The notes under the pieces are model-generated. The model saw only the letters and a list, made by a program, of their open reading frames with translations, made no database searches and was not told the DNA's origin. DNA of 32,000 bases from NCBI RefSeq assembly GCF_004376175.1, contig NZ_SNUY01000007.1, positions 1 to 32,000 on the forward strand, in the 5' to 3' direction. Below are positions 3,536 through 12,156 of this stretch, one piece after another. The DNA comes from Halalkalibacterium halodurans. GTDB lineage: Bacteria; Bacillota; Bacilli; Bacillales; Bacillaceae_D. Every line of letters begins with the position of its first letter. Position 1 is the stretch's first letter. A program made the position numbers and the translations under genes.

Positions 3536-5119
3536 TTACCTCATTTTTATTAAACTCGCCATGGCACGAAGAGGTTTCGTTACTTTCCATGAAGTACTCT
3601 TCTGTATCTCTTGATACTTCTTTTTATATAGATTTCTTTCTTTTTGTAACTCTTTAAGTTCTTTTGAGAGTACTTGGAGCTCACTTTCTTTGTAACTTAT
3701 AGAAGGTTCCTTTATTTCAAATCCAATCTTTATCGGCTTGTCCCAATTTTTCTCATCAACCCTTGTAACTTTATACTTCTTAGGAAGTCTATTGTTCACT
3801 ATCTCTCTAAAATGATCTACCGACTCAACACAGCCTGAAACAATGATTGATGTCTTATTGTTTTTCAAGTGTTTAATATAACCGTTTAGCTTTAGCTCCC
3901 TCGCTTGTTTCTGAACCCATTTATCAAAGGACGTAGAACTCTGCTTTTTAGAAAGAAGAAAACGCCTTGAGTCTATATTCCCTGTCGGTAATGACGGTAC
4001 CAAAAACTCATTAGCAACTCCACGCCTAAAAGCATCATGAATTGTATCAAAATCAAAATAGTACAATAGATTTTTCCTTTTTCCTTTTGTTTCAGGAAAA
4101 TAATAATCAATAATCGCTTTAGGGATATCCCGCGCTTTTCCTTCCATCGGAAAGAGATGGTTCCTAATGGCCGCCCTGGAATTAATTTCAAGAATACTAG
4201 CTGTATTTGTTTCGTAATCAATAATCATATCAATCCCACATTGGATTAATCCAGGGATAGCTTTACAGGCATCAATAGCTATTTTTTTTATTTCATCTGA
4301 CAAATCATCTGTGGCATCTGTAGAGTCTCCTCCTGATGACACATTGTTTTTTGTTTTTAAGAATACTCTTTCTCCTTCTTTTGGAATGCTATCTAATGTA
4401 TAGCCTACCTTCTCCAAGGTGCTATGGACCTCTTTATCAATCGTAATAGGTAGACCATTCAAAGAAGGGTTTTTATCACGTTCTTTATTTTTAACCCGTA
4501 ATAATGTTCTTATTGTGTTAACACCATCACCAACTACGTTCGCTGGAATTCGTTTAAATGCACCAATGACTTCATTCCCGATAACAAATACTCGATGGTC
4601 TATCCCAACTGCATATCTTTCCACAATAACCTCTGGATAATTTAAATCGTTCCTCACATAGGATAATGCACTTCTAAATTCTTCTTCACTCTTTATGTTG
4701 GCAATAACCCCTTTACCACCTGTACCTTTAGACGGCTTAATCACTAAGGGATAACCTAGTCTTTTAGAGTACTCTACAATCTCTTCATCTGGTACTACTC
4801 CACTAAACTCTTCACCCTCTGGAACAGGAATACCGGCTCTCAAAAGATATTTTTTTGTCAAATGTTTATCAATGCAGATTTTGATAGCCTCACGTGGAAC
4901 AATACTCCCTCTAGAAACTACAAAAGTATATTCCTTACCTTCGTAAGACAAAGAATACCTTAATCGTGATTTTTTTTCAGTCGTATTGAAAAATTTAACC
5001 GTTATACCTCTTCTCCATGCCTCTAACGCTATACTATACATCGATAATGTATAGCCTTTCGCTTTTTGAGGTACCGCATCCTCTAAATGTGGTAACCATT
5101 CTTTATTTGCTTGTTCCAT
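3536..5119 (-). CDS. ATP-grasp ligase paralog (527 aa) with a strongly degenerate acylphosphatase-like domain, a coiled coil and an SxSWKxTxPLR tail
   Basis: ORF track 3536-5143. I prefer the ATG at 5119 (MEQANKEWLPHL), preceded by GGGGGA. Motifs seen: YPLVIKPSKGTGGKGV, RIPANVVGDGVNTIRTLL, NNVSSGGDSTDATD, FPMEGKARDIPKAIIDYYFPETKG. The C-terminus reads ...LKELQKERNLYKKKYQEIQKSTSWKVTKPLRAMASLIKMR. Confidence 0.85.
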   Translation of the reverse strand: MEQANKEWLPHLEDAVPQKAKGYTLSMYSIALEAWRRGITVKFFNTTEKKSRLRYSLSYEGKEYTFVVSRGSIVPREAIKICIDKHLTKKYLLRAGIPVPEGEEFSGVVPDEEIVEYSKRLGYPLVIKPSKGTGGKGVIANIKSEEEFRSALSYVRNDLNYPEVIVERYAVGIDHRVFVIGNEVIGAFKRIPANVVGDGVNTIRTLLRVKNKERDKNPSLNGLPITIDKEVHSTLEKVGYTLDSIPKEGERVFLKTKNNVSSGGDSTDATDDLSDEIKKIAIDACKAIPGLIQCGIDMIIDYETNTASILEINSRAAIRNHLFPMEGKARDIPKAIIDYYFPETKGKRKNLLYYFDFDTIHDAFRRGVANEFLVPSLPTGNIDSRRFLLSKKQSSTSFDKWVQKQARELKLNGYIKHLKNNKTSIIVSGCVESVDHFREIVNNRLPKKYKVTRVDEKNWDKPIKIGFEIKEPSISYKESELQVLSKELKELQKERNLYKKKYQEIQKSTSWKVTKPLRAMASLIKMR

Positions 5120-5143
5120 TAAATATCCCCCTACCTCATTCAA

Positions 5144-5863
5144 TCAGGAATCATCAACCGTGATAGCATTTCGACTTCCAATGTTTACTATATGTTTAGC
5201 TAAAAGGAGAATAGGATCAATTACTTCAATTCCCATTTTCTCTGTATCCATTACTAAACTTAGCTCGGTACAACCAGCAATAATCGCTTTAACATTGGCC
5301 TTTTTCAATTTTTTCACAAGTTCTTTTAAAGCAACCGATATTCCATAAGAAGTATTTCCAGACTTAATTCCATTTTCTCCATAAATAATTTCCATCAATT
5401 TCTTTTGATCTTTCTCTTCTGGAACAACAATTTCATTTGAAATGTATTCTTCAAAAACACCCGATTTAACCGATCCATCTGTAGCCATGAGCCCAATCCT
5501 TGTTTCAGAAGAAAAGAGATCCCTTAGATGTAATTCTACAAGTTCAATTGCATTCACAATTGGAATAGGTGATTTCTGCTTTAATTCAGAGATAAATGCA
5601 TGAGCTGTCATACACGGGATAACTGCAACATCAGCACCTGCGTAAAATAACTTATGCAAATTCTCAGTGAGCCTGGGAACTGGGCTTGTCCCTTTACCAA
5701 AAATATAATTTGTTCGATCTGGTATTTGAGGATCGTTTATTATAATCATATTTACATGATCTTGATCCATTTCGACAGAGGTATTTGTAATAACCCTATT
5801 AAATAACTCGGCTGTTGCAGCTGGCCCCATTCCACCTAAAACGCCAATTACTTTTGGAGACAT
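5144..5863 (-). CDS. Asp/Glu/hydantoin-racemase family protein, aspartate-racemase-like
   Basis: The 239-aa ORF carries VIGVLGGMGPAAT, the first Cys motif IPCMTAH and the second Cys motif AGCTELS. This is the two-cysteine PLP-independent racemase pattern. AAAGGA lies upstream of the ATG. Confidence 0.85.
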   Translation of the reverse strand: MSPKVIGVLGGMGPAATAELFNRVITNTSVEMDQDHVNMIIINDPQIPDRTNYIFGKGTSPVPRLTENLHKLFYAGADVAVIPCMTAHAFISELKQKSPIPIVNAIELVELHLRDLFSSETRIGLMATDGSVKSGVFEEYISNEIVVPEEKDQKKLMEIIYGENGIKSGNTSYGISVALKELVKKLKKANVKAIIAGCTELSLVMDTEKMGIEVIDPILLLAKHIVNIGSRNAITVDDS

Positions 5864-10438: not shown

Positions 10439-10512
10439 TATAACGACCTCCCCTAATTTCCCTCAATGGTTTATATCTAAATCTTGATTTTGGAATCTTC
10501 CTACATCCGTCC

Positions 10513-12156
10513 TTATTTTTCAAACAATCGACCGACCCATTTTACTATGTCCGCTATCTTTCGAAAGGGTAACGTAAGCTGCCAAGAAATGCTTCGACTA
10601 TATGCTCGGTAACGCCGCTCTGCACGTCGTAACTCTTTCTGCACTGTCTCTAATTCAAGCTTCATCTTCTTTAATTGGTCCACTTGCATTTTTAAATCTG
10701 CTTTAACTTCAAACCCGACCTTTACTGGATCTTCCCATGACTCTTCAAAAACATCAACAACATCTGAACGCCCTGGATCTTCGAAGATAGCTTGCTTAAA
10801 GTCATTGACGCTTTCTGGATCAGTACCCATGACAATGACTTCGATGTTTCCATTTTCAAGGTTTTTTACAAAACCACTTAGCTTTCGTTCAAAGGCTTGT
10901 TTTCTCAAGCCTCGATGATAATCAATTCCTTGGACATCACCTGTTACTGTATATTTCTTGCCATAAACTTCACCTAAAGGAGCTGCAGATACCGTCGTCA
11001 CTGAGGCTGTTTTTGTCACCAATGGTTCCAACACGTCTGAAAAATCAAAGTAAAACCTAGATTTTTGACCGTTCATCCCTTTTGTTTCTGGGAAGTAATA
11101 ATCAATGATAGCCGCCGGGACATCTCGAGCGATGCCTTTCATCGGAAACACGAGCGAGCCAATTTGTGCCGTCGGATTTAACTCTAATACAACAGCCCCT
11201 TCTTCCACTGGTTGTTTGTCATCATAAAGGATATCGACGGCCCCATGAGGTAACTGCGGGACTGCCTGCAAGGCTTGTACCGCTAGCTGTTTGACCTCCT
11301 CAGGCAAGCTATCTAGTTGGTCAACAGGATCTCCACCGATTGAAATGTTGCTCTTATTTGTTAAAAAAACCATCTCGCCGTCTTCCGGAATCGTATCCAA
11401 ACCGTACCCTTGAATGGCTAAGTGATTTTTCATCTCTTGATCTAGCTTAATGGGACAGCTAATCAACCGAGGGTTCTTTTGACGCTCTTCGTTTTTAGCC
11501 TCTATTAATTCTTGAATTGTCTGTTTTCCATTTCCAACAACATTGGCAGGAATGCGCTCTATAGCCGCTACAACCTTATCTCCAACAACGTACAACCGAT
11601 AATCTTTTCCTGCCACATGACGCTCAACGATGACATCTTTATAATTGAGGACATGCCGAACGTGACGAAGCTGTTCAGCAAATGTTACTTCGTCTTCAAT
11701 GTTTGTCACAACGCCTCGACCGAAGCTTCCATCTGTCGGTTTTACGACAAGCGGATAGCCGATCTCCGCTGCATATGAGATAATTTCATCGTCTTCAATC
11801 TCCGCTACAAAACGCCTTCCTTCTGGTATCGGAATGCCAGCCTTTGCGAGATATTCTTTTGTTTTCTCTTTATCGGCTCCAATCGCAACAGCTTCATTCG
11901 TTACTTTATCCCCACGAGTTCTAAAGAAATAATGGGTTTTCTCTTCTGATCGAAGAGAAAACAGCTTTCCTGGTCGATCAACGAACCACGTTTTGATCTC
12001 ACGAAAAGCTTCAGAGTCCTTTGTATGCCACCGAAGGGTCAAGCCTCGTCGCCATCCTTCTAAGGCTACTAAATATGCATCAAATTCTGGCCCCCTTGCA
12101 TCTTCAACGATTTCTTTCGACAGATGCGGTAACCATTGGTGATTAATTTGTTCCAT
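10513..12156 (-). CDS. ATP-grasp ligase paralog (547 aa) with a degenerate acylphosphatase-like domain, a coiled coil and an SxSWQxTxPFR tail
   Basis: ORF track 10513-12231. I prefer the ATG at 12156 (MEQINHQWLPHL), 7 nt after GGAGGAA; the longer version would overlap the upstream gene. Motifs seen: YPLVVKPTDGSFGRGV, RIPANVVGNGKQTIQELI, SNISIGGDPVDQLD. The AcP-like segment reads VTGDVQGIDYH...GFVKNLENGNIEVIV. The tail reads SISWQLTLPFRKIADIVKWVGRLFEK. Confidence 0.9.
   Translation of the reverse strand: MEQINHQWLPHLSKEIVEDARGPEFDAYLVALEGWRRGLTLRWHTKDSEAFREIKTWFVDRPGKLFSLRSEEKTHYFFRTRGDKVTNEAVAIGADKEKTKEYLAKAGIPIPEGRRFVAEIEDDEIISYAAEIGYPLVVKPTDGSFGRGVVTNIEDEVTFAEQLRHVRHVLNYKDVIVERHVAGKDYRLYVVGDKVVAAIERIPANVVGNGKQTIQELIEAKNEERQKNPRLISCPIKLDQEMKNHLAIQGYGLDTIPEDGEMVFLTNKSNISIGGDPVDQLDSLPEEVKQLAVQALQAVPQLPHGAVDILYDDKQPVEEGAVVLELNPTAQIGSLVFPMKGIARDVPAAIIDYYFPETKGMNGQKSRFYFDFSDVLEPLVTKTASVTTVSAAPLGEVYGKKYTVTGDVQGIDYHRGLRKQAFERKLSGFVKNLENGNIEVIVMGTDPESVNDFKQAIFEDPGRSDVVDVFEESWEDPVKVGFEVKADLKMQVDQLKKMKLELETVQKELRRAERRYRAYSRSISWQLTLPFRKIADIVKWVGRLFEK

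What the first reader, a model, noticed from the sequence alone, without database searches (positions are those of the whole stretch)
3715..10960. Acylphosphatase-like domain fused to ATP-grasp ligases: canonical in one paralog, progressively degenerate in three
Seen: after the ATP-grasp core, the 543-aa protein has IVTGKVQGVGYRR and GYTKNLDNGKVVIV (DNA about 7310-7565). These match the two classical acylphosphatase signatures (V-x-G-x-V-Q-G-V-x-F/Y-R and G-F/Y-x-K-N-x3-G-x-V), including the catalytic Arg and Asn. The 552-aa paralog has VSGFVQRVSYH, with Gly changed to Arg and the catalytic Arg changed to His. The 547-aa paralog has VTGDVQGIDYH, with Arg changed to His. The 527-aa paralog keeps only the fold-like spacing (LSKKQSSTSFD ... 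GYIKHLKNNKTSIIV, with Asn changed to His). The 365-aa ligase lacks the domain. Established: ATP-grasp enzymes act through acyl-phosphate intermediates, acylphosphatases hydrolyse acyl-phosphates, and HypF uses an acylphosphatase-like domain to handle carbamoyl phosphate. Inference: fusing a domain that destroys or binds acyl-phosphates to an enzyme that makes them is counter-intuitive. It suggests proofreading of mis-activated carboxylates, substrate channelling or holding of the acyl-phosphate end of a growing chain, or pseudo-enzyme scaffolding in the degenerate copies.
Basis: partly seen in the sequence, partly recalled or inferred. Interest (0 to 1): 0.8.

Follow-up and report, generated by a model that had tools for sequence, protein, structure and literature searches.

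The report
Acylphosphatase-like domains on cell-wall peptide ligases
Four neighbouring amino-acid ligases in the cell-wall acidic-polymer gene cluster of an alkaliphilic Bacillus relative each carry a real acylphosphatase-fold domain, and comparison with 73 related genomes shows that the "degenerate" copies are mostly conserved variants, which makes this an unstudied accessory domain rather than simple decay.

Summary
All four ATP-grasp proteins (527, 543, 552 and 547 aa, minus strand) match Pfam Acylphosphatase PF00708 above its curated cut-off. The 365-aa ligase lacks the domain.

The window is the tupA (teichuronopeptide) locus of Halalkalibacterium halodurans. The ligase cores resemble the G domain of cyanophycin synthetase, and their catalytic residues are invariant.

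"Progressive degeneration" is only partly right, as 73 related loci show:
- The 547- and 552-type ligases form an invariant core next to TupA. Their Arg-to-His change is conserved in 62 of 67 and 57 of 66 orthologues.
- The 543-type keeps the canonical Arg and Asn strictly, but occurs in only about half of the loci.
- Only the 527-type is truly relaxed.

Canonical acylphosphatase domains are also fused to at least three other ATP-grasp families and to a Mur ligase. The link to enzymes that form acyl-phosphates is therefore recurrent.

The function is untested. My best reading is an accessory domain with hydrolytic or anion-cradle activity kept only in the 543 lineage and repurposed elsewhere. 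No paper in the searched library describes this fusion. Interest is moderate to high.

The parts
7100..8731 (-). 543-aa ATP-grasp ligase with a canonical C-terminal AcP domain and a coiled-coil tail (called W543 here)
   Evidence: One search gives the ORF. PF00708 72.4 bits plus RimK and ATP-grasp_3 hits; cyanophycin synthetase model 226 bits, far below its 850-bit cut-off; matches the CphA1 G domain, residues 214-482. AF2 pLDDT 89.5, pTM 0.81.
7304..7567 (-). AcP domain of W543 (aa 389-476). It has the phosphate loop VQGVGYR with R405 (DNA 7517-7519) and N423 (DNA 7463-7465).
   Evidence: One search gives the secondary structure: E389-398, H404-414, E418-423, E429-435, H438-450, E456-464.
8780..10438 (-). 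552-aa ATP-grasp ligase (W552). It is a core paralog, always second after TupA in related loci.
8990..9241 (-). AcP-like domain of W552 (aa 400-483). The loop is VQRVSYH: Gly is replaced by Arg and the catalytic Arg by His. The Asn is kept (GYINN).
   Evidence: 65.2 bits.. His in 57 of 66 orthologues, and Arg or Lys at the loop Gly position in 54 of 66.
10513..12156 (-). 547-aa ATP-grasp ligase (W547). It is a core paralog, always directly after TupA in related loci.
10708..10956 (-). AcP-like domain of W547. The loop is VQGIDYHR with His at the Arg position. The Asn is kept (GFVKN). The domain is acidic.
   Evidence: 60.8 bits. H aligns to the R of 3trg. His in 62 of 67 orthologues and Arg at the next position in 56 of 67; group mean net charge -6.7.
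3536..5119 (-). 527-aa ATP-grasp ligase (W527), with a divergent AcP-fold domain and a coiled-coil tail
   Evidence: AF2 pLDDT 88.7, pTM 0.81.
3704..3982 (-). AcP-fold domain of W527. Arg is replaced by Asp, Asn by His, and the phosphate loop is lost. The fold is retained.
   Evidence: 35.8 bits, profile positions 14-85.. E382-391, H396-408, E412-418, E422-430, H431-443, E451-458, E467-470; the group's domain identity is 0.24, against 0.44 for its ligase core.
2258..3355 (-). 365-aa ATP-grasp ligase of the same CphA-G-like kind, without an AcP domain and without the tail
5915..6988 (-). CapA/PGA_cap-like protein, directly downstream of W543. No N-terminal hydrophobic stretch is evident by eye; this was not formally tested. 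Some homologues of W543 are fused to this domain.
   Evidence: PF09587 242.7 bits. P0028, P0052, P0057 and P0117 combine ATP-grasp, AcP and PGA_cap; weak similarity to the MslH epimerase.
5144..5863 (-). Asp/Glu-type amino-acid racemase
   Evidence: PF01177 119.5 bits. TIGR00035 186 bits, and the CuyB model 209 bits against a 190-bit cut-off.
12179..13657 (-). TupA-like ATP-grasp protein, the marker of the teichuronopeptide pathway. It is always immediately upstream of the W547-type gene.
   Evidence: PF14305 316.7 bits. One search shows the synteny in 67 loci.
7103..7294 (-). Coiled-coil tail of W543, ending in SSSWKVTAPLRK. Equivalent tails lie on W527 (about 3539-3700), W552 and W547.
   Evidence: H480-523. 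One search gives the motif tallies.

Best explanation
The four proteins are cytoplasmic ATP-grasp amino-acid ligases of the cyanophycin-synthetase G-domain type. They belong to the teichuronopeptide (acidic wall polymer) pathway. They are the obvious candidates for the so-far unidentified L-glutamyl peptide synthetases of that polymer.

Their C-terminal acylphosphatase-fold domain probably comes from one ancestral fusion that was followed by gene duplication. It now exists in lineage-specific states.
1. The W543 lineage keeps the complete AcP phosphate cradle, with the Arg and the Asn. I infer that it still binds, and probably hydrolyses, an acyl-phosphate or a similar anionic group. It would act in cis as a safety valve for activated carboxylates that are released or mis-formed on a polyanionic substrate.
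2. The two core lineages, W547 and W552, replaced the Arg with a conserved His and rebuilt the loop. Their domain is under selection but is unlikely to be a classical acylphosphatase. I infer a ligand-, polymer- or partner-binding role. The closest parallel is the peptidase-derived N domain of cyanophycin synthetase, which anchors the growing chain.
3. The W527 lineage keeps only the fold, as a structural module.

Shown here: domain identity, fold, residue states, their conservation, the synteny and the recurrent fusions. Inferred: every functional statement.
For: - Domain identity and residue states.
- Fold retained in both the canonical and the most divergent copy.
- ATP-grasp catalytic set (K137, E176, D306, E318, N320 in W543 numbering) invariant in all four paralogs and 36 homologues. 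Best structural and sequence relatives are CphA1, CphA2 and GshF.
- Organism and pathway: 99% identity to an H. halodurans protein; TupA family; TUP is poly-gamma-L-glutamate plus polyglucuronate.
- B. halodurans lacks the pgs/cap operon, and an ATP-grasp L-PGA synthetase was predicted for it: PMC3815933.
- Conserved synteny in 73 loci.
- Lineage-specific conservation. His in 62 of 67 and 57 of 66 orthologues; the 29 proteins that carry both Arg and Asn also share an invariant G-x-V-Q-x-V loop. Group consensus sequences.
- Per-domain identity shows constraint in three groups and relaxation in the fourth.
- The His-bearing groups are sister clades in a neighbour-joining tree.
- Arg23 and Asn41 are the phosphate-binding and water-orienting residues of AcP: PMC8147672.
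- Canonical AcP domains recur on other ATP-grasp families and on a Mur ligase, at either terminus.
- Precedent for an enzyme-derived accessory domain that anchors the polymer and is catalytic only in some members, the CphA1 N domain: PMC9262961.
- The AcP-like domains are strongly basic in the canonical (+7.6) and divergent (+6.9) groups, although the ligase core is acidic in the canonical group (-5.7) and near neutral in the divergent group (+1.0). This fits binding of a polyanion.
Against: - No activity data exist for any member.
- The model tool returns no coordinates, so I could not see whether the cradle faces the ligase site.
- 22 of 49 complete loci lack any canonical AcP domain. A hydrolytic safety valve is therefore dispensable for this pathway.
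- The W547-type domain is acidic, -6.7. That does not fit polyanion anchoring.
- An Arg follows the His in most orthologues. It might restore phosphate binding, so loss of AcP chemistry is not proven.
- The neighbour-joining tree has no support values.
- The canonical group's loop Gly is often Lys or Asn, which departs from standalone AcPs.
Confidence: 0.45

Rival explanations
1. The AcP domain is a proofreading hydrolase that destroys mis-activated acyl-phosphates made by the ligase it is fused to. The non-canonical copies are decaying pseudo-enzymes kept as scaffolds.
For: The Arg, the Asn and the loop are strictly kept in the W543 lineage. They are also kept in the fusions to other ATP-grasp and Mur ligases. 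All these ligase classes form acyl-phosphates, which is established enzymology.
Against: The universally present core ligases carry a conserved His, not a decayed site. The W547-type domain is as conserved as its ligase core. Nearly half of the complete loci have no canonical copy. The domain sits at either terminus in different fusions, which argues against a fixed editing geometry.
Confidence: 0.2
2. The domain is purely architectural. It mediates oligomerisation or packing of the ligases, together with the coiled-coil tail, into a multi-enzyme assembly line. The residual AcP motifs have no ligand.
For: Every paralog has the fold whatever the state of its site. The W527 type tolerates complete loss of the loop. 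A shared coiled-coil tail motif on several ligase families in the same loci suggests complex formation.
Against: Strict conservation of the exact catalytic residues in the canonical lineage, and of His plus group-specific loops in the core lineages, is not expected for a pure packing module. Canonical AcP recurs on unrelated ligases that lack the tail.
Confidence: 0.15
3. The domain is a small-molecule sensor that tunes ligase activity, in the manner of an ACT or RAM domain. The ligand would be an amino acid, phosphate or acetyl-phosphate, bound at the loop between the first strand and the first helix.
For: The topology is the same ferredoxin-like one, with a ligand loop at the same place (plus general knowledge of ACT domains). 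Paralog-specific loops could match paralog-specific effectors.
Against: There is no sequence relationship to ACT or RAM families in the Pfam scan. There is no direct evidence. Recurrent fusion specifically to acyl-phosphate-forming ligases points to chemistry rather than regulation.
Confidence: 0.1
4. The annotation is taken at face value. These would be bifunctional proteins whose AcP part is an ordinary housekeeping acylphosphatase, unrelated to the ligase reaction.
For: NCBI names these proteins 'acylphosphatase'. The canonical copy scores like standalone AcPs.
Against: Three of the four window copies lack the catalytic Arg. The domain is restricted to one biosynthetic locus type with conserved synteny. 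The scores are below the NCBIfam acylphosphatase cut-offs, for example 58 bits against 100.
Confidence: 0.05

Closest known systems
Cyanophycin synthetase CphA1/CphA2 (G domain plus accessory N domain)
   Same: The ATP-grasp core is the closest sequence and structure relative. Like CphA1, the ligase carries an accessory domain derived from a hydrolase fold. In CphA1 that domain loosely binds the growing polymer and is catalytically active only in some members (PMC9262961).
   Different: There is no Mur-ligase M domain and no M16-peptidase-like N domain. The scores are far below the family cut-offs, about 226 against 850 bits. The accessory domain is C-terminal and has the AcP fold. The proteins occur as 4-5 paralogs in a wall-polymer locus rather than as one polymerase.
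HypF N-terminal acylphosphatase-like domain
   Same: It is an AcP-family domain built into a larger enzyme that handles an acyl-phosphate (carbamoyl phosphate). HypF appears among the sequence hits (4g9i).
   Different: The HypF domain is N-terminal and is followed by zinc-finger and YrdC/Kae1-like domains. None of these is present here. The partner chemistry is adenylation, not ATP-grasp ligation.
Standalone acylphosphatases (PF00708; for example 1ulr, 2bjd, 1w2i)
   Same: W543 has the fold, the loop signature and the Arg/Asn pair.
   Different: The domain is fused rather than a 90-100 aa single-domain protein. Three window paralogs lack the Arg, and one also lacks the Asn. The NCBIfam acylphosphatase models score below their cut-offs.
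PgsBCA/CapBCA poly-gamma-glutamate synthetase
   Same: The likely product class is an acidic glutamyl polymer on the cell surface. A PGA_cap (CapA-like) gene is present.
   Different: No PgsB-type Mur-like ligase or PgsC was seen in the region. The CapA-like protein has no obvious N-terminal membrane anchor by eye. The ligases are ATP-grasp enzymes. B. halodurans is reported to lack the pgs/cap operon (PMC3815933).
RimK, GshF and other peptide-extending ATP-grasp ligases
   Same: The same superfamily and the same inferred chemistry: carboxylate phosphorylation followed by amine attack.
   Different: None of the solved members carries an AcP domain.

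Membership tests
Acylphosphatase family (Pfam PF00708) | HMM match above the curated gathering score | tested here: met
   72.4, 65.2, 60.8 and 35.8 bits against a cut-off of 22.5. The 527-aa match is partial, covering profile positions 14-85.
Acylphosphatase family (Pfam PF00708) | Compact beta-alpha-beta-beta-alpha-beta fold with a five-stranded sheet | tested here: met
   AF2 models of W543 and W527 show this order of elements at high pLDDT. W552 and W547 were not modelled.
Catalytically competent acylphosphatase | Phosphate-binding loop V-x-G-x-V-Q-G-V-x-[FY]-R with the Arg23-equivalent residue | tested here: not met
   Met only by W543 (VTGKVQGVGYR). W552 has VQRVSYH, W547 has VQGIDYH and W527 has KQSSTSFD.
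Catalytically competent acylphosphatase | Asn41-equivalent residue in G-[FYW]-x-x-N | tested here: inconclusive
   Present in W543, W552 and W547. Replaced by His in W527. In orthologues the Asn is kept in only 40 of 67 (W547 type) and 36 of 66 (W552 type).
Catalytically competent acylphosphatase | Hydrolysis of acyl-phosphates such as benzoyl phosphate | not testable with these tools
   This needs an enzyme assay.
NCBIfam acylphosphatase equivalogs (PRK144xx models) | Score above the curated whole-protein cut-off | tested here: not met
   the best hit for W543 is 58.3 bits against a cut-off of 100. The other paralogs score lower.
ATP-grasp carboxylate-amine ligases | ATP-grasp HMM matches and invariant nucleotide- and Mg-binding residues | tested here: met
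   RimK, ATP-grasp_3 and CPSase_L_D2 hits. K137, E176, D306, E318 and N320 are invariant across 40-45 sequences, including all four paralogs. One search gives the structural matches.
Cyanophycin synthetase (TIGR02068 / NF010623) | Full-length N-G-M architecture, scoring above the cut-off | tested here: not met
   about 208-229 bits against cut-offs of 850 and 877. Only the G-domain region, about 147-478, aligns. There are no Mur_ligase domains.
HypF-type AcP domain | N-terminal AcP followed by zinc-finger and YrdC/Kae1-like domains | tested here: not met
   One search shows no such domains. The AcP domain here is C-terminal to an ATP-grasp.
Teichuronopeptide (tupA) biosynthetic locus | A TupA-like ATP-grasp gene next to glycosyltransferases and an ABC exporter, in H. 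halodurans | tested here: met
   PF14305 316.7 bits, and GT2/GT1 proteins. ABC ATPase and permease; 99% identity to an H. halodurans protein. for tupA and TUP.
Teichuronopeptide (tupA) biosynthetic locus | Genetic or biochemical proof that these ligases make the glutamyl peptide of TUP | not testable with these tools
   No such study was found in the searched library.

The most novel reading that the evidence does not exclude
The ATP-grasp-AcP ligases are the missing L-poly-gamma-glutamate (teichuronopeptide peptide) synthetases of alkaliphilic and halophilic Bacillaceae. The AcP fold is a general, previously unrecognised partner module of acyl-phosphate-forming amide ligases, both ATP-grasp and Mur type. 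Its conserved His-type variant forms a new functional site, for example for chain priming, length control or acyl-phosphate hand-off between paralogous ligases, rather than being a dead enzyme.
Probability: 0.2. Interest if true: 0.8.

Novelty: new variant of a known kind. Interest (0 to 1): 0.6.

Why it matters
Teichuronopeptide is a main determinant of alkaliphily in H. halodurans. A 2013 review (PMC3815933) still described its L-glutamyl peptide synthetase as unidentified and predicted an ATP-grasp enzyme. These genes are concrete candidates, so that open question becomes directly testable.

More generally, an acylphosphatase domain recurs on enzymes whose intermediates are acyl-phosphates, across several ATP-grasp families and a Mur ligase. 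That suggests an unstudied layer of intermediate control or substrate handling in non-ribosomal amide-bond polymerases. The conserved Arg-to-His lineages offer a natural experiment in how an enzyme fold is repurposed.

There is also a practical annotation point. Hundreds of these roughly 470-590-aa ligases are currently named only "acylphosphatase", which is misleading.

Tried and rejected
- Related-locus scan with the single 543-aa protein found nothing, because its peptide patterns were too specific. It was repeated successfully with alignment A1.
- I tested whether the canonical AcP type co-occurs with the CapA-like gene, as their adjacency and the natural fusions suggested. There is no association across loci (12, 12, 11 and 14 in the 2x2 table), so I dropped the idea of an obligate canonical-AcP/CapA pair.
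- I tested whether every locus needs at least one canonical AcP on any carrier. It does not: 27 of 49 have one.
- The promoter and terminator scan of 1800-13800 showed no excess over shuffles, so it gave no information on operon substructure.
- Rfam scans of the whole window, and a permissive scan of 1-2300, found nothing.
- Literature: only two papers in the library mention both ATP-grasp and acylphosphatase, and neither concerns this fusion. Further searches were no better. Two papers I tried to open by PMC id were not held: Iyer et al. 2009 on amidoligases, under an id recalled from memory, and Aono 1990.
The prediction tool returns confidence and secondary structure only.
- I rejected membership in cyanophycin synthetase and in PgsBCA (see the membership tests).

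Full report
**1. What is in the window**

Bases 2258-21301 of the minus strand hold one co-directional gene array. In order of transcription it reads:
- an ABC-2 permease and a two-domain ABC ATPase;
- two large GT2+GT1 glycosyltransferases (853 and 910 aa);
- a TupA-like ATP-grasp protein (PF14305, 316.7 bits);
- three ATP-grasp proteins of 547, 552 and 543 aa;
- a PGA_cap/CapA-like protein;
- an Asp/Glu-type racemase;
- a 527-aa ATP-grasp protein;
- a 365-aa ATP-grasp protein.

The 543-aa protein is 99% identical to a Halalkalibacterium (Bacillus) halodurans protein. tupA is the gene known to be needed for teichuronopeptide (TUP). [quoted passage not shown]

**2.

All four long ligases match Pfam Acylphosphatase above its curated cut-off: 72.4, 65.2, 60.8 and 35.8 bits against 22.5. 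The 365-aa ligase does not match.

Alignments to solved acylphosphatases fix the key positions:
- In the 543-aa protein, R405 and N423 align with the catalytic Arg and Asn.
- The 547-aa protein has His at the Arg position and keeps the Asn.
- The 552-aa protein has VQRVSYH.
- The 527-aa protein has Asp at the Arg position and His at the Asn position. Only profile positions 14-85 match.

Arg23 binds the substrate phosphate and Asn41 orients the catalytic water in classical AcP (PMC8147672).

AlphaFold2 models give the AcP order of secondary-structure elements after the ATP-grasp core, followed by a long helix. This holds for the canonical copy (pLDDT 89.5, pTM 0.81) and for the most divergent copy (88.7 and 0.81).

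**3. The ligase part**

The cores are closest to the G domain of cyanophycin synthetase and to the C-terminal ATP-grasp of GshF. This is seen in NCBIfam scores of about 208-229 bits, far below the 850-877-bit family cut-offs. It is also seen in the PDB sequence hits to 7lg5, 7wac and 3ln7 and in the Foldseek hits.

K137, E176, D306, E318 and N320 (543-aa numbering) are invariant in all four paralogs and in 36-41 homologues. All four therefore look like active ligases.

No solved structure combines an ATP-grasp with an AcP domain.

**4. Comparative genomics changes the picture**

A profile-guided scan of one genome per species returned 73 loci. They come from halophilic and alkaliphilic Bacillaceae, from Salinicoccus and Lacicoccus, and from a Thermoactinomycetaceae MAG.

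Gene order is strikingly constant: ABC transporter, two glycosyltransferases, TupA, a W547-type ligase, then a W552-type ligase. A variable tail follows, with a W543-type ligase, CapA, a racemase, W527-type ligases and the short ligase.

Tallies by position:
- The first ligase after TupA has His at the catalytic Arg position in 62 of 67 cases, with Arg at the next residue in 56 of 67. Its loop consensus is V-S-G-D-V-Q-D/N-I-G-Y-H-R.
- The second ligase has His in 57 of 66 cases, and Arg or Lys at the loop Gly position in 54 of 66. Its consensus is V-Q-R-x-S-Y-H.
- 29 further proteins carry both the Arg and the Asn. They share an invariant G-x-V-Q-x-V loop.
- The remaining 71 are heterogeneous. 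They include a Y-M subgroup that nests inside the canonical clade.

Mean pairwise identity of the AcP-like domain against the ATP-grasp core:

| Group | AcP-like domain | ATP-grasp core |
|---|---|---|
| W547 type | 0.57 | 0.56 |
| Canonical (W543) type | 0.50 | 0.48 |
| W552 type | 0.45 | 0.65 |
| Remaining ligases | 0.24 | 0.44 |

A neighbour-joining tree of the ligase cores places the two His groups as sister clades (no support values).

So the Arg-to-His state is old and selected, not decay in progress. Only the W527-like group looks relaxed.

Mean net charge of the domain also differs by group: -6.7 for the W547 type, +2.0 for the W552 type, +7.6 for the canonical type and +6.9 for the rest. 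The ligase cores are acidic in the first three groups (-13.8, -9.3 and -5.7) and near neutral in the rest (+1.0).

**5. Is a canonical AcP needed?**

Among 49 loci with at least 6 kb of sequence downstream of the second ligase, 27 have at least one domain with both the Arg and the Asn. The other 22 have none. The canonical site is therefore accessory to this pathway.

The W543-type gene often directly precedes CapA, and four database homologues fuse ATP-grasp, AcP and PGA_cap. Across loci, however, the two do not co-occur more than expected (12, 12, 11 and 14).

**6. The AcP-ligase link is recurrent**

I ran an exhaustive HMMER search of 1.84 billion representative proteins with the 88-residue W543 domain. 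It found 3074 proteins at E up to 0.001 and 57 at E up to 1e-10.

Many of the best hits are fused proteins. Pfam scans and source names show canonical AcP domains in these contexts:
- at the N-terminus of a YheC/D-type ATP-grasp (Thalassobacillus devorans, in the same locus type, L029/L030);
- at the N-terminus of another ATP-grasp (960 aa);
- after a sugar-transfer-type ATP-grasp that also carries kinase (APH) and TPR domains;
- on tandem ATP-grasp proteins;
- after an enolase-superfamily domain plus an ATP-grasp;
- followed by an FkbM methyltransferase;
- in a 2391-aa Lampropedia hyalina protein with PGA_cap, VanY and Mur-ligase domains.

Of the multi-domain fusions scanned, all but the FkbM methyltransferase fusion keep both the Arg and the Asn. 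The search query was itself canonical, so this sample is biased toward canonical domains.

ATP-grasp and Mur ligases both act through acyl-phosphates, which is established enzymology. Repeated fusion in different domain orders therefore supports a real functional link. The variable order argues against a rigid channel between active sites.

**7. Mechanistic reading**

*Shown:* identity, fold, residue states, conservation, synteny and recurrent fusion.

*Inferred:*
- The ligases extend or polymerise an acidic peptide on the TUP precursor in the cytoplasm before ABC export. A 2013 review noted that B. halodurans lacks the pgs/cap operon and predicted a novel ATP-grasp L-PGA synthetase (PMC3815933).
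- The canonical AcP domain most plausibly binds or hydrolyses acyl-phosphates, or cradles a carboxylate or phosphate. It would act in cis as a safeguard when a polyanionic substrate with many carboxylates is mis-activated or released.
- The His-type domains of the core ligases do something else that is under selection. Ligand, polymer or partner binding is my best guess.
- A documented parallel is the N domain of cyanophycin synthetase. It is a peptidase-derived module that loosely anchors the polymer and is catalytic in only 83% of a 70%-non-redundant set of CphA1 sequences (PMC9262961).

*Rivals:* universal proofreading with dead copies, pure scaffolding, allosteric sensing and an unrelated housekeeping AcP. 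These are weighed in the Rival explanations section. None can be excluded without assays.

**8. Known or new**

Databases already record the architecture. NCBI names these proteins "acylphosphatase", and JGI names them [quoted passage not shown].

I found no paper in the searched library that describes or tests the fusion. The amidoligase survey by Iyer et al. (2009) could not be opened under the id I recalled, so prior mention there cannot be excluded.

I classify the finding as a new variant of a known kind: ATP-grasp peptide ligases with an uncharacterised AcP-derived accessory domain.

**9. Limits**

- There are no coordinates from the structure tool.
- The tree has no bootstrap support.
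- Orthogroups were defined by gene position and by motif.
- Loci are cut at 10-kb flanks.
- The chemical structure of TUP is known only for strain C-125.

Noticed in passing
window 3539-3700, 7103-7294, about 8780-8990 and 10513-10700 (C-terminal tails); 13480-13520 (TupA-like N-terminus); about 16150-16200 (910-aa glycosyltransferase N-terminus): All four AcP-bearing ligases end in a coiled coil followed by the motif [ST]-x-S-W-[KR]-x-[TS]-x-P-[LIV]-R-K. A similar element sits near the N-terminus of TupA (SRLWKYTAVWRK), and a weaker one in the 910-aa glycosyltransferase. In related loci the motif also ends YheC/D-type and sugar-transfer-type ATP-grasp proteins. No Pfam family covers it. It looks like a pathway-wide docking or assembly tag.
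   Followed up: partly
window 2001-8000 against 10001-20000: G+C is 35.6-36.2% over the accessory genes (543-aa ligase, CapA-like, racemase, 527-aa and 365-aa ligases). It is 41-44% over the core genes. The low-GC part coincides with the part of the locus that varies between genomes, which suggests a separately acquired module.
   Followed up: partly
window 1-2257: This 2.2-kb stretch has no ORF above 122 aa on either strand, a higher G+C (46%) and strongly negative GC and AT skew. There are no Rfam matches even at a permissive threshold. Its nature is unknown; it could be a pseudogene or a mobile-element remnant.
   Followed up: partly
window 5144-5863 (-): The racemase passes NCBIfam's equivalog cut-off for the cysteate racemase CuyB (209 bits against 190), as well as the general Asp-racemase model. 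A D-acidic amino acid other than D-Glu, such as D-Asp or D-cysteate, might therefore be fed to the adjacent ligases.
   Followed up: no
window 5915-6988 (-): The CapA/PGA_cap-like protein has no obvious N-terminal membrane anchor by eye. The family includes MslH, an epimerase that acts on the C-terminal residue of a peptide. The authors of that study proposed that CapA is a peptide epimerase (PMC8179263). The protein here could epimerise the chain end made by the ligases.
   Followed up: partly
window 18884-20488 (-): The ABC exporter ATPase is a 534-aa protein with two nucleotide-binding domains in one chain, with two Walker A motifs (GSNGAGKTT and GHNGAGKST). This is unusual for Wzt/TagH-type polymer exporters.
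   Followed up: no
P0180 (Lampropedia hyalina, 2391 aa); P0172, P0151, P0189, P0250 (metagenomic): These are giant multi-domain proteins that join a canonical AcP domain to other domains. The combinations are PGA_cap + VanY + Mur ligase; kinase + TPR + ATP-grasp; tandem ATP-grasp pairs; and an enolase-superfamily domain + ATP-grasp. All are uncharacterised, and they lie outside the teichuronopeptide locus type.
   Followed up: partly
window 12156-12231 and 16321-16403: The longest ORFs overlap their upstream neighbours: TupA with the 547-aa ligase by 53 nt, and the 853-aa with the 910-aa glycosyltransferase by 83 nt. The true starts are probably the internal ATGs, and the genes are tightly packed or translationally coupled.
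   Followed up: no
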